This document shows positions 12,391 through 42,603 of a stretch of 64,000 bases of DNA, piece after piece. Position numbers and translations under genes: made by a program. How positions within the stretch are numbered: the stretch's first letter is position 1; each line of letters opens with the position of its first letter. The stretch lies in NCBI GenBank assembly GCA_964016885.1, contig OZ024762.1:13702001-13766000 (forward strand). The letters are read 5' to 3'. The notes below the pieces were generated by a model that worked only from the letters and a program-made list of their open reading frames with translations, searched no databases and was not told the origin of the DNA. The DNA is from Eledone cirrhosa. Taxonomy: Eukaryota.

Positions 12391-12598
12391 AGGAACGAGT
12401 AGGACCCCGACGGCTGAGCTCAAGCCGTTTCGATAGCTAATTCTGAACTAAAAAAAAAAAGAAGTTCAGAATTAGCCGAAACGGCTTGAGCTCAGCCGTC
12501 GGGGTCCTACTCGTTCCTATTACCCATTCTCCTACCCTAAGTATTGAGTACTTTGGTGCGTTATGGTCCACCTGGTTCCTTACCACATTTCCTTAGTT
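12391..12598 (+). mobile_element. Family A fold-back element
   Basis: Inverted arm AGGAACGAGTAGGACCCC..., A-rich loop, direct arm and tail; AT repeats on both sides. Confidence 0.9.
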
Positions 12599-12616
12599 AT
12601 ATATATATATATGAAT

Positions 12617-12675
12617 GAAAAGAATCAGGACCCCGACGGCTGAACTCCGCCCGTCTCGACAGTTACATCTGAACT
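12617..12675 (-). mobile_element. Family A variant, solo arm
   Basis: GGACCCCGACGGCTGAACTCC core shared with family A; sits in (TA)n. Confidence 0.65.
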
Positions 12676-15143
12676 ATATATACATATACATATATATATA
12701 TATATATATATATATATATATATATATATATATATATATATATATTTATATGTATGTACATACATATATGCATATATATGTCGCTCTCTCTCTATCTCTC
12801 TCTCTATATATCTATACACACACACACACACACATATATATAGAGAGAGATTTATAGATATAAGAATTAATAGATATTATAGATAGTTATTGATAGATAT
12901 AGATATATAGATATATATAGATAGATTTATAGATAGTTATAGATCAATAAATATGTTGATAGATATATAGAGAAATAGGTTTTAATAGAAATTGTAGAAA
13001 TGTTAGTGAAATTGTCTTAATGTCTTCTCTTAACGTATTTACATAATCTTGTTCCATAAGTTAAAATATACTTCTTGGGAGGAGGACAAGACATAGAAGC
13101 ATACTACTAATACCCCAGCCCTCCCTCTCTCTCTCTCTCTCTCTCTCTCTCTTGTTCTTCTTGTTCTTCTTGTTCTTCTTGTTCTTCTTCTTGTTCTTCT
13201 TCTTCTTCTTCTTTCTCTCTTGCTTGCTCCGTCTCCTTTTCTTCTTCTTCTTCTTCTTCTTCTTCTTCTTCTTCTTCTTCTTCTTCTTCTTCTTCTTTCT
13301 CTCTTGCTTGCTGCGTCTCCTTTTCTTTCGCTTTAATTCTTTATCATGCGCTCTCTCTCTCTCTCACTCACTCTCACACTATATATATATATATATATAT
13401 ATATAACCCTCTTTCCCCTTTTCTCTATGTCCCTCTTTCTCGCTTTCCTACTCTTTCCCTCTCCTCTCTCTCTCCCCTCTCACCCCCTCTCGATCTCTGC
13501 CTCTCCACAGGCTCTACTAAAATAAGTAAAATAAGAAAAAGAAGGGAAGAAAATAAGAAAACCAAAGTTGGTATTGTTCGGATTCAATAGAAAATCAATA
13601 ATAGTATAGAGAAATTAAATTTTAAACTATTTAATTAAATTTACAATGGCGGACATATTTGTTGAAAGACATATTGACTGAGAGCTACATTGTCATATAT
13701 GATATTCGACATACATACATATTACACACACACACATATACACGCTTATATATATATATATATACACGGACCCGCATATATATATATATATATATATATA
13801 TATATATATATATATATATACGTATGTAAATATAAACATATGTGTGTGTTTAATACTTGCTTATATATATATATATATATATATATACATATGTATATAT
13901 ATATATATATATATATACATATGTATATATGTATATATATATATGTACATATATATATATATATATATATGTATATATATATATATATATGTATATATAT
14001 ATATATATATATGTATATATATATATATATGTATGTATATATATATATATATGTACATATATATAAACATGTATATACGTATATGTTGGTATATATATTC
14101 GAAATTATATACATATATATATCTATATCTATATATATATATGTGTGTGTGTATGTATGTATATATACCCGTGTGAGTGTATGAAATGTATGTTTATATG
14201 TAGGTGTATGTATATATCCAAAGTTCAACATAGATAACTGGATTTCGTTAGACTTTTAACTAAATTAAATATCTTAATGTTAAATATATAATATTCATGG
14301 GATAAGGCGAATTAAATCTAATTAAACACACACACACACACACACACACACACACACACACACACACACACACACACACACACACACACACACACACACA
14401 CACACACACACACACACACACACACACACACACACACACACACACATATATGTACATATGTACATACACATGGATGTGTGTATGTTATCATAATTATGTC
14501 TAATGAAAAAGATGAACTAATGTGCCTCTCTGTATATATATATATATATAGATATAGATATACATGTATATATACATTTATATACATATATATATATATA
14601 TATATATATATATATATATATATATATATATATATATATATATAATTTATATATATACATCTATATAATATCTATACTTATATTGGTTTTCCTTTTTATT
14701 TATCGTTATGATTTCCATTCAATCAATAAGATCTTCTATCCCATTATTCCATTATTCCTGTAACATATAAACAAACATGTATATATGTCTTATATGACGT
14801 CACATTAGTACTTGATACAGCTTTCAACACAAAGCTAAGCTTTGTAGTATATTCTATTATGTAATATTATTAACAGTGCCACAGAAATATCGACGAACAT
14901 GACATTTGTACATTGTCGGGTGAATAGTGAAGGAAGGTAGGCCTCAATTTGAGTGACTGGTTACTTTGCTAGAAATAGCAGCCATGCGTGTTTCTGTCTG
15001 AATTAACAGCTTTTGTGTGGATTTGGCCCCCTTGATTTGTCATGGTGTCGCAGGGAGGCTATTGCTTGAGCTCGTAAACCTGAGATAACTCACTCCATTT
15101 CAGGTCTGATGACATCAGTATATATATATATATATATATATAT

Positions 15144-15755
15144 AGAAGAAGTTAGTAAGCCCGTGGGTACTAAGTACCCCTAGAAATACATAGGTTGTCT
15201 ATGATTTAAGGTTGTTCTATGGTATCAATTTGACATACCAGAACTATAATATTAATATAAGCAGAACAAGCAAAATTCAACCAATTTTTTAAAATAAATT
15301 AAAAAATATAATTTAAATATTTACCTATTCATATGGCTCTTACCGATCGGTTTCGCCTTGTAAAACACCAGAGACTTCTATCACCCTCCATTTGTTGAGA
15401 ACAATCATGTTGATTCTATTTAGCTGCTATTTTTAGTAACGAGATAGACAACACGTCTATGTTTTTCCCGCTTTAACCTCGGGTAGTTCACGTACAGGTC
15501 ATTTTTCGGCCTTTTGGATCTGTGCTAGCTGGCAGATAACAATATATTTTATCGTTCTTGGGTCTTTAGCCCTAGGAAAGGAAAATGCTTCTCTGATGAG
15601 CCTTGATTTTCCATTAGAAATCCATTGGGTCTCTGGTGTTTTACAAGGCGAAACCGATCGGTAAGAGCCATATGAATAGGTAAATATTTAAATTATATTT
15701 TTTAATTTATTTTTAAAAAATTGGTTGAATTTTGCTTGTTCTGCTTATATTAATA
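15144..15755. mobile_element. Island with 127-bp inverted repeats and a hammerhead (Penelope-like inverted pLTR pattern)
   Basis: 15249-15375 is the reverse complement of 15629-15755; (TA)n on both sides. Confidence 0.75.
15587..15668 (+). ncRNA. Type I hammerhead ribozyme motif with long loop II
   Basis: GCTTCT-CTGATGA-GCCTTG...CAAGGC-GAAA-CC GATC GG-TA|AGAGC. Stem II 6 bp, helix III is the palindrome ACCGATCGGT, triplet GUA (cut after 15663). Confidence 0.8.
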
Positions 15756-40086: not shown

Positions 40087-40238
40087 AACGAAGGAAATGT
40101 GGTAAGGAACCAGATGGACCATAACGCATCAAAGTACTCAATACTTAGGGTAGTAAAGTGGGTGATAGGAACGAGTAGGAGTCCAGAATTAGCCGTCGAA
40201 ACGGCTTGAGCTCAGCCGTCGGGGTCTTACTCGTTCCT
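40087..40238 (-). mobile_element. Family A element, minus orientation
   Basis: Reverse-complement tail, direct arm largely deleted, full-length inverted arm. Confidence 0.9.
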
Positions 40239-41504
40239 ATATATATATATATATATATATATAATGACAGTCATTTAACTGTGAAGTTATATTCATGTTA
40301 CTATATATATATATATATATGAATGTATGTTTATTTATATCAACGTATGTGTATAGTGTATATATTTTAAACTTTAATGTTATAAATTCTATATCGTACT
40401 CGCGACAAGTAATAAATGTCCCACGCGCACCTGCTTTTAAAACATTCTTTTATACAACTTGAGATTTTGCGACGTGCTTTCAAATTTAACCCAGGCAGGT
40501 TAAATACCTATCGATCTATTTATTATTTAATTTAATTTGTTTAAAAAAAACTTTCATAGCTTCAGAGAAGCAAGTGTTGTCGTATATGAACCTTAGCTTA
40601 ATCATGCTTTTATGTGTTTAAATTAATGTCACGGTTTCGATTCTCACCAAGAGAAGAGATACATAGGTATATTTTAAGATTTAGTGTAGTGTGTGTGTGT
40701 ATATATATATATTATTTTCTAGCTTACTCAGTTCAGAAAATACGGTCGTTAATATAAGTATTAATTTATATAAGGTTAAATTTTGTATCAAGGTTTCTAA
40801 TCCCATCAAGGTATGATACTTATGTATATTATAGAATTTATTTATTCTTAACTTTTTAAAAGTATTTACTAGACTATTAAGTCCAGAAGACATCGTTATT
40901 AGTTTAAAATATCCAATATTTATATCGGGACACATTCTGGGTTTCGCGTTCAAATTTTACCCAGAGGCCATATATATGCCTTGGTGGCCCTTGAAATATG
41001 TATAATGAAATAAATATGGTTTTATAAATATAGTTTCCATTTGTTAATATATTGTATATTTACTCCAATAATTTGTTGAGTGCTTCATATCAGTTATATA
41101 TTTTGCTTGTTGTATCCCAACAAATTAAATATAACCTCTACACACACACACACACACACATATATATATATATTTTAATTCGTTTTTTAAAGAATTAAAT
41201 AAGTTAGTCAGTAAAGGGAGCGAATAATTCATATGATCCTTAATTTTAAACCGTCTTTTATGCTACGCTAAATTATGCCCTCTCTCAAATTCCAGCTAGA
41301 GGTGATATATATATATATATATATATATATATATATATATATATATATTAAGACTCACTATTTAGCTTTAACAAAATGAATATTTAAACTCTACTTTGTA
41401 TTGAATGGTCTATTTTCTCTCGGCCGTCAACTACACACACACGCACACGCATACGCACGCGCGCGCGCGCTGTATATATATGTATATATATTATATATAT
41501 ATAT

Positions 41505-41633
41505 TATATATATGTATGTATATAGACAGAATAAAGACATGCAAAAACAGTTTTATTAGTTTCACGCTTGGGAAGAAGGAAATGAAATATTGAACGTATC
41601 GGACATAAGTCCTTCTTCAGGCAATAGCAAGTC
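41505..41633 (-). mobile_element. Penelope-like remnant with degenerate minimal hammerhead
   Basis: Minus strand: TATTG C CTGAAGA A GGAC TTAT GTCC GATA CG TT CAATA (41588-41626). GAAA is mutated to GATA; flanked by (TA)n. Confidence 0.45.
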
Positions 41634-42340
41634 ATATATATATATATATATATATATATATACGTGTGTGTGTATATATATATATATATATATATATACA
41701 CACACCTGTAACTCCTGGGAGAGCCAGAGGGAACACTGTGTCCGGTGTAATCTGGAGATTTTCAAACTGGTGGAATCCATCTATTCTCTCCAGGTCTGAA
41801 AACAGCCGATTTCTTCTTCTTTTTCTTCTTTTTCTTTTTTTAATTTCTTCTTCTTTTCCTTCTTCTTCTTCTTTTCCTTCATCTTCTTCTTTTCCTTCTT
41901 TTTCTTCTTTTCCTTCTTTTTCTTTTCCTTCTTTTTCTTTTTTTCTTCTTTTCTTCTTCTTCTTCTTTTCCTTTTCCTTCTACTTTTTTTTTTCTTTTTC
42001 ATCTTTTCCTTCTTCCTTTCCTTCACAAAGGAAGACTCGCCCCCCCCCCCTTCACCCAGTACACGGCTGGTACCTATCTATCGACCTACCTCGAAATATA
42101 CAAAAAAAACACAGTTTCCCTCTGCGGTATTTGAACCCAGGAATGAGAGAGAGAGAGAAACTATTCCAAACCTTTTCATCCGACAAAGAATCTGACAACT
42201 CGCCACTTTGTTACATTTCTTCCATATATCCACTGATAACGTAAACATAGAAATAGTTTGCGTGTCAGTGTATATATTTTGTCTGTGTTCCTGTGTATAT
42301 ATCTAAGCGAATATATATATATATATCTATATATATATAT

Positions 42341-42603
42341 TTCGTTTCTGAATTTGTTTAGCAAGATTCTTTATCTGAAATCGTGTGTTGAAACCGATAT
42401 TGTTATACTTTGGGAGGGTCATGTTGCCAATAAGAAACACACGCACCAGTTGCTTTCACTTCAATTTATTATATATTTATAAATTTATAAATCTACAAAT
42501 CTAGATTTGTAGATTTATAAATTTATAAATATATAATAAATTGAAGTGAAAGCAACTGGTGCGTGTGTTTCTTATTGGCAACATGACCCTCCCAAAGTAT
42601 AAC
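42341..42603 (-). mobile_element. Island with 202-bp perfect palindrome and 61-nt tail
   Basis: 42402-42603 is self-complementary with no spacer, centred on TCTAGA; AT repeats on both sides. Confidence 0.85.

What the first reader, a model, noticed from the sequence alone, without database searches (positions are those of the whole stretch)
12391..42603. Shared asymmetric architecture: inverted arm + direct arm + 60-105 nt tail
Seen: unrelated islands follow (TA)n - inverted arm - direct arm - unpaired tail - (TA)n. Tail lengths are about 76 nt (family A), 77 nt (28248), about 84 nt (21338), 61 nt (42402) and about 105 nt (15249). MITEs have terminal symmetric TIRs, so these are not MITEs. 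Established: PLE insertions often have a pLTR copy lacking the 3' tail at one end, in direct or inverted orientation. Inference: one insertion mechanism with two priming events, one at the RNA end and one at a fixed internal site on the opposite target strand, generates palindromes across families.
Basis: partly seen in the sequence, partly recalled or inferred. Interest (0 to 1): 0.75.

Follow-up and report, generated by a model that had tools for sequence, protein, structure and literature searches.

The report
Two-start Penelope retrotransposon stumps in microsatellites
These mirror-image islands in TA repeats are short end-pieces of Penelope-type jumping genes, a published layout, and the two outer ends of a mirror-image copy almost always fall one at each of two fixed start sites, likely because both cut DNA strands copy the same RNA.

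Summary
Observation confirmed, with small corrections. Families A and B are 3' ends of Hydra-type Penelope-like elements (PLEs) and C of a Neptune-type one. D is a 481-bp hammerhead tandem repeat. E has a hammerhead motif, but I found no parent gene. The layout (inverted truncated copy, one-sided tail, (TA)n target) and two start sites bounding the tail are published (PMC8557442, PMC3846280, PMC11167929).

Added here:
- In tail-anchored copies the far end was the internal site in 73 of 73 script-resolved cases (one tail-tail case seen by BLAST). In internal-anchored A copies it was the tail in 55 of 56.
- The inner junction varies.
- Both arms share private variants; one insertion shares 41 of 42 A-to-G edits, with a 31-mer from the edited stretch found nowhere else in the genome.
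- A bulged hairpin follows the internal site in 16 of 20 tail clusters (hold-out 0 of 3).

The best mechanism is coupled two-strand priming on one sense RNA. This scan has reported the same layout, pairing rule, hairpin and editing marks on other DNA.

The parts
12389..12597 (+). Family A stump (Hydra-type PLE 3' end): inverted arm to -61, A-run fill, direct arm from -58, 80-nt tail; holds the 3' half of the hammerhead
15145..15761 (-). Family D, 481-bp hammerhead tandem repeat (retrozyme-like): tail arm 15145-15375 (to -124), tail-less arm 15375-15761 (to -378) with a whole type I hammerhead motif (core near 15594 on +), 107-nt tail
21334..21516 (+). Family E stump: arms meet just 5' of the hammerhead core; tail about 77 nt; about 90% identical to family copies; parent ORF not found
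21530..21673 (+). A-type subfamily copy abutting E, with a short palindrome and an internal deletion
24315..24467 (+). A-type subfamily stump with short arms
28015..28207 (+). Family A stump: arms to -57 and -54, 1-nt overlap, 80-nt tail
28242..28526 (+). Family B stump (Hydra-type PLE 3' end): both arms to -103, whole hammerhead motif (predicted cut at -35), 77-nt tail with the bulged hairpin
31972..32033 (+). Family A inverted arm alone, followed by a 2.3-kb TA array
38448..38608 (+). Family A stump whose arms are joined through the self-complementary stem III region
40088..40240 (-). Family A stump: tail-less arm to -58, tail arm only to -13
42340..42608 (-). Family C stump (Neptune-type PLE): perfect 202-nt palindrome to -104, 60-nt tail that encodes early codons of the ORF; the arms stop short of the hammerhead (predicted cut at -168)
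18632..18751 (+). A-type solo tail arm with no inverted partner
1..186 (+). Family A stump cut by the window start
10544..10660 (+). Further family with the same layout and tail hairpin motif (read by eye; family seen)
10700..10894 (-). Further family with the same layout and tail hairpin motif

Best explanation
The islands are 5'-truncated, head-to-head Penelope-like insertions whose two outer ends sit one at each of two fixed sites, likely made when the element's enzyme cuts both strands of a (TA)n tract and each cut end primes a copy of the same sense RNA. Shown: family identity, fixed outer ends, one-of-each pairing, variable inner junction, shared variants between arms. Inferred: one reverse transcriptase (perhaps of a dimer) starts at the internal site and the other 60-107 nt downstream at the tail site. 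Both copies tend to stall at hammerhead structure (in A, the U-rich loop of stem II). Their 3' ends are then joined by short homology or filler bases. In Hydra-type families a bulged hairpin a few nt after the internal site would position the enzyme (inferred, untested).
For: Parent ORFs: B and A carry the Hydra motifs CxCX5C and CxxC (B also CxH, A also DKT) with no CCHH (definition read). C has YVDD, CX4CxxC and a GIY-YIG domain with CCHH. Pairing: of 115 tail-anchored loci (A30, B30, C30, E25), 73 had the internal site at the far end, 0 the tail, 39 were unresolved or solo, and 3 were not scored; BLAST found one tail-tail E copy, L138. Of 60 position-ordered internal-anchored A loci, 55 ended in the tail, 1 in the internal site and 4 were unresolved; Fisher p=5e-19 for A against independent choice. 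In 51 short A copies the tail-less arm reaches at least 20 nt further upstream in 10 and the tail arm in 0; in 3 the arms do not overlap at all, which fold-back of a tail-primed copy cannot make directly. Junctions with an A-run followed by a T-run of different length (L216, L220, L032) fit two separately stuttered 3' ends. 24 of 29 fill-free junctions have microhomology, 12.6 expected. Shared arm variants versus permuted pairs: A 21 vs 3.4, B 11 vs 2.1, C 51 vs 17.1 (each 0 of 1000 permutations), E 10 vs 4.2 (2 of 1000). L181 shares 41 of 42 A-to-G changes between arms in sense orientation; a 31-mer from that edited stretch occurs only twice in the genome, both in this insertion. In vitro, a PLE protein cuts and extends both strands and starts at two internal sites bounding the tail (PMC11167929).
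Against: At a 3-nt threshold the arm asymmetry in A is 19 versus 10 (p=0.14). Later central deletions in palindromes could mimic both asymmetry and microhomology. The edited insertion L181 is a tandem, so its second arm could also be a DNA fold-back of the long first copy; it was the only edited insertion found. Shared variants also fit two RNAs from one source locus. In vitro, no difference in start site between strands was seen, so the coupling is not yet explained. Target-site duplication is barely testable: 7 of 131 versus 1-4 in permuted pairs. No empty site was examined. The hairpin motif was derived from the same data it was tested on and failed in 0 of 3 hold-out islands. No parent ORF was found for E, and D is non-coding.
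Confidence: 0.7

Rival explanations
1. One priming event at the tail site; the cDNA folds back, copies itself, and the endonuclease trims the second arm at the internal site. This combines the self-priming idea of PMC3846280 with the endonuclease-resolution idea of PMC8557442.
For: It explains shared variants and perfect palindromes (42402-42603; 22 of 51 A junctions within 3 nt of symmetric). The L181 geometry allows it.
Against: It needs the tail arm to reach at least as far upstream as the other arm. That fails in 19 of 51 A copies (10 by 20 nt or more, versus 0 the other way) and in 6 of 10 resolved C copies (2 opposite, 2 equal), and 3 A copies have no overlap. Rescue needs one-sided later deletions. 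A-to-G in sense orientation argues against an antisense template for L181.
Confidence: 0.15
2. Two-strand priming, but on two RNA molecules from the same source locus held in one dimeric particle.
For: It fits the geometry and the shared subfamily variants. Minimal hammerheads and the PAc protein are predicted dimers. It avoids two enzymes copying one stretch of RNA.
Against: The two arms of L181 share 41 of 42 A-to-G changes, which two RNA molecules would not. It gives no reason for one-of-each pairing.
Confidence: 0.12
3. The palindromes are assembly or library chimeras, or MITE-like units copied whole.
For: One A junction recurs in many best-hit loci. Symmetric MITE-like islands do occur in (TA)n here.
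Against: Arms have diverged (54 unshared variants in A). Junctions differ among copies. Ends recur in raw reads of three other runs and in contigs from another organism label. The arms are ends of retroelement ORF-bearing copies.
Confidence: 0.03

Closest known systems
Hydra clade of Penelope-like elements (Craig et al. 2021, PMC8557442; includes Hydra-1_Obim from Octopus bimaculoides in its supplement)
   Same: C-terminal endonuclease with CxCX5C and CxxC and no CCHH (A, B), CxH (B), DKT (A); hammerhead; (TA)n targets; inverted truncated copy plus one-sided tail.
   Different: Tails here are 60-107 nt, against 30-40 bp in that paper. The pairing rule and tail hairpin were not in the passages read. 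I did not compare the families by sequence with Hydra-1_Obim.
Neptune/Nematis-type PLEs (as described in PMC8557442)
   Same: Family C: CX4CxxC linker, CCHH GIY-YIG domain, hammerhead in the pLTR, partial tandems, microsatellite target; the ORF starts inside the pLTR and runs through the tail.
   Different: Clade not tested by a tree. Its tail lacks the hairpin motif of A, B, D and E.
Poseidon PAc of Anolis carolinensis (Frangieh et al. 2024, PMC11167929)
   Same: Two start sites bounding the tail, AT-rich cut sites, both strands extended.
   Different: No one-of-each coupling was reported in the parts read, and the start sites did not differ by strand.
Metazoan non-LTR retrozymes (bioRxiv 10.64898/2026.07.22.740005, part 1 of 5 read)
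   Same: Family D: non-coding tandem units, each with a type I hammerhead.
   Different: D insertions show the two-site PLE footprint at their ends, which points to PLE mobilisation.
LINE-1 twin priming (search listing only; mechanism recalled)
   Same: Two target strands prime on one RNA, giving an inverted 5' part.
   Different: In L1 the second site is variable and the parts barely overlap. Here it is fixed, and both arms copy the same stretch.

Membership tests
EN+ Penelope-like elements | ORF with PLE-type RT and GIY-YIG endonuclease, continuous with the repeat end | tested here: met
   A (L245), B (L174, L175), C (L181). Pfam is weak: RVT_1 at E 0.0009, below cut-off, for 1 of 6 proteins. 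Homologues carry PF26215, PF00078 and PF01541. Not met for D (non-coding); not found for E.
EN+ Penelope-like elements | Type I hammerhead in the pLTR | tested here: met
   Descriptor hits for B, C and D. E read by eye with a weak stem II, and A with a TTGAGAA/CTGAGAA core in 5 and 5 long copies. No hammerhead among the 150 of 767 Rfam rows shown. Cleavage not tested.
EN+ Penelope-like elements | Partial tandem or inverted truncated copy with a tail at one end | tested here: met
EN+ Penelope-like elements | RT phylogeny with PLE clades | not tested
   no tree built
Hydra clade | CxCX5C linker, no CCHH, CxxC and CxH, DKT, (TA)n target | tested here: met
   A and B translations by eye against section 11 of PMC8557442. 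CxH seen in B only and DKT in A only; the RWK motif was not checked.
Neptune clade | CX2-5CxxC linker plus CCHH, C-terminal EN | tested here: inconclusive
   Motifs present in C; Neptune versus Nematis not separated
MITE | Symmetric terminal inverted repeats with a fixed interior | tested here: not met
   Asymmetric ends and variable interior
Non-LTR retrozyme (family D) | Tandem non-coding units each with a type I hammerhead | tested here: met
   481-bp spacing of hits, hammerhead
Non-LTR retrozyme (family D) | Self-cleavage and circular RNA | not tested
   no RNA run laid

The most novel reading that the evidence does not exclude
Penelope-like elements integrate by an obligately asymmetric two-strand mechanism. 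One RNA is primed once at each tail boundary by the two halves of a dimer, positioned in Hydra-type families by a conserved bulged hairpin that non-coding retrozymes also carry to hijack the enzyme. This would account for the tail and the head-to-head inversion together, which the papers read leave open.
Probability: 0.5. Interest if true: 0.62.

Novelty: new member of a known kind. Interest (0 to 1): 0.4.

Why it matters
How PLEs form their inverted repeats and one-sided tails is stated as open in PMC8557442 (section 15) and PMC11167929. Thousands of countable insertions in this genome turn it into testable rules: one end per site, the same RNA for both arms, and a candidate cis hairpin to mutate in the existing in vitro assay. 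Practically, such islands can be mistaken for MITEs or microRNA hairpins. When transcribed, they would supply double-stranded RNA in an animal group known for heavy RNA editing (recalled).

Tried and rejected
- The generic inverted-repeat finder was swamped by TA arrays.
- Rfam gave microRNA-like hairpins below threshold.
- The DNA search for family C returned nothing, probably because its words are too common; a pattern search worked.
- Idea that splicing restores A's hammerhead: three copies matched a CTGATGAG pattern, but they read as junction fill, and long copies carry their own core upstream. Rejected.
- Idea that the RT writes family-specific reiterations into the (TA)n flanks: interruptions mostly match background, apart from AG at 4 of 26 C internal ends. 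Not supported.
- Target-site duplication test weak.
- Search for further edited copies found only L181.
- Parent ORF of E not found in 20 loci; the endonuclease piece in L296 belongs to another family.
- Rows handled by hand: L239 (internal-internal, mis-scored by the script) and L227 (deleted tail) were left out of the 51-junction statistics. Two extension fetches landed on other insertions, so L221 and L226 stayed unresolved. L217 has one 3.2-kb arm with no partner seen, and L232 is interrupted.
- Some loci recur between searches (for example L001/L037, L013/L035). The tail-anchored set includes the window's own copies and best-hit sets favour young copies.
- Small-share sequencing runs that I did not lay are not used as evidence.
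- Literature searches listed no paper on the pairing rule or the tail hairpin; the library lacks most subscription papers.
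Full report
Setting. The window lies in a 3.0-Gb assembly. The best protein hit of family C is annotated as from Octopus vulgaris, at 67% identity. It is 33% GC with 664 TA runs. Self-BLAST after masking simple repeats confirms local inverted repeats at all five named places and at several more. Mapping to family references gives the arm extents listed under parts.

What the families are. Long copies were found by searching the genome. B copies carry a 3' UTR and the end of an ORF with CxCX5C, CxxC and CxH and no CCHH, and an RT region. 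A copies do too, with a DKT motif. These are the Hydra-clade features in section 11 of PMC8557442, whose supplement lists an octopus Hydra family with (TA)n preference and a hammerhead. C has a near-full element in L181: a frameshifted ORF that starts in the pLTR and runs through the tail, with YVDD, CX4CxxC and a CCHH-type GIY-YIG domain. D hits are spaced 481 bp apart in tandems and are non-coding. E has no ORF found. Type I hammerhead motifs lie upstream of the internal site: predicted cuts at -35 (B), -168 (C) and -89 (D) by descriptor, and by eye in E and A. A has TTGAGAA in 5 long copies, which matches the U3-A8 variant described in PMC4209133, and CTGAGAA in 5. Short A and C stumps hold only part or none of the ribozyme.

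Fixed outer ends and pairing. Exact patterns give 6,519 (TA)-internal junctions for A and 10,309 internal-plus-tail words for C. Among 115 tail-anchored loci, a script found the internal site at the far end in 73 and the tail in 0; 39 had no partner end within the locus (solo or too long) and 3 were not scored. BLAST found one tail-tail E copy. Among the first 60 usable A pattern hits on contig C1, taken in order and anchored on the internal end, 55 ended in the tail, 1 in a second internal site and 4 were unresolved. Independent choice of sites is rejected for A (p=5e-19). Resolved D insertions also show one internal and one tail end, modulo 481. The tail site is not an RNA end in C or D, since the sequence continues into the ORF or the next unit.

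Inner junction. In 51 short A copies, 32 tail-less arms and 26 tail arms stop between -56 and -64, at the U-rich apex of the predicted stem II. 22 junctions have filler, 5 are blunt and 24 have microhomology (12.6 expected, 16 with 2 nt or more against 4.5, with a simple uniform null). The tail-less arm is longer by more than 3 nt in 19 and shorter in 10 (p=0.14), and longer by 20 nt or more in 10 versus 0. In 3 the tail arm begins 3' of the internal site, so there is no palindrome at all. This favours two copies joined end to end over fold-back, though later deletions could contribute.

One template. Arms of one insertion share minority variants more often than permuted pairs in A, B, C and E. 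In L181 both copies of the upstream pLTR region carry the same 41 of 42 A-to-G changes relative to the terminal pLTR, and a 31-mer from the edited stretch occurs only at those two places. I infer editing of a sense RNA before copying. Because that insertion is a tandem, it cannot separate two primings from fold-back.

Across families. A de novo scan of 846 TA-bounded islands in the loci found 200 oriented fold matches, most with 60-110 nt tails. In 16 of 20 tail clusters with tails of 55 nt or more, a four-base-pair stem (ACTC/GAGT, GCTC/GAGC or GTTC/GAAC) starts 3-11 nt after the internal site; shuffles give 0.63. 13 of the 16 best fit a 2-nt 3' bulge before an inner stem of unrelated sequence. 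The motif was chosen on these data, the clusters are partly related, and C lacks it. In 390 kb of preset genome positions (two flank the window), 21 of 24 tailed islands matched known clusters and the 3 new ones lacked the strict motif.

Reads. Three RAD-seq raw-read runs under the same species label show thousands of reads switching to (TA)n at the internal site of A (three runs) or C (two runs), and identical strand-switch joints in separate libraries; contigs of another organism label show the A end too. The window's own fold centres were not shown to be spanned.

Literature seen. PMC11167929: parts 1-2 of 4. PMC3846280: passages and the Discussion. PMC8557442: passages, sections 11 and 15, and a few supplement rows. 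PMC4209133: part 1 of 4. bioRxiv 10.64898/2026.07.22.740005: part 1 of 5, supplements closed. PMC13282606: passages. L1 twin priming: search listing only, mechanism recalled. The layout, the (TA)n bias and the two start sites are published. The pairing rule and hairpin were not found in the eight searches named under Tried and rejected, and supplementary figures could not be seen. Earlier notes of this scan, read after my analysis, report the same points on other DNA; they are not independent support.

Verdict. The feature is real and belongs to a known class. Interest is moderate.

Noticed in passing
L181 (G000:C1:2081500-2091499): Near-full Neptune-type element with an A-to-G hyper-edited pLTR region fixed in DNA in both arms; the ORF has one frameshift near its start and an Asn/His/Thr-rich stretch, recalling the N-rich inserts of PMC3846280.
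   Followed up: partly
window 27980-28017 and L147, L149, L141 flanks: The same interruption of the TA array (ATG, AG, or TTAGTATGTATG) appears on both sides of an insertion, a possible target duplication; C ends are often beside AG-interrupted TA.
   Followed up: partly
window 364-533, 34659-34845, 38971-39083, 43563-43807, 44317-44427: Abundant SINE-like repeat; 38971-39083 is a symmetric palindrome of its end between TA runs, and a copy of the end is fused to an A-type stump at 43462-43602.
   Followed up: no
L054, L099, L165, L285; L255; L260: Symmetric TA-bounded islands of other families (MITE-like, or tails that begin with a TA run).
   Followed up: no
window 29156-30392; 47107-48482; 55332-56468; 58649-59467; 17080-17620: Tandem arrays (about 41/82-bp, 99-bp and simpler units).
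   Followed up: no
window 31735-34313: A 2.6-kb interrupted TA array directly after a lone family A arm.
   Followed up: no
window 263-357: 95-nt palindrome abutting a SINE-like copy; family not identified.
   Followed up: no
window 10130-10310; 20238-20444; 24558-24764; 27430; 61550: Further repeats with CTGATGA/CTGGTGAAG...GAAA hammerhead-like cores, read by eye.
   Followed up: no
L056; L233: Family A insertions with 48-150 nt of foreign sequence captured between the two arms.
   Followed up: no
family A at -61: The stall site reads like a 3' splice acceptor (TTTCATTTAG); no spliced form was shown.
   Followed up: partly
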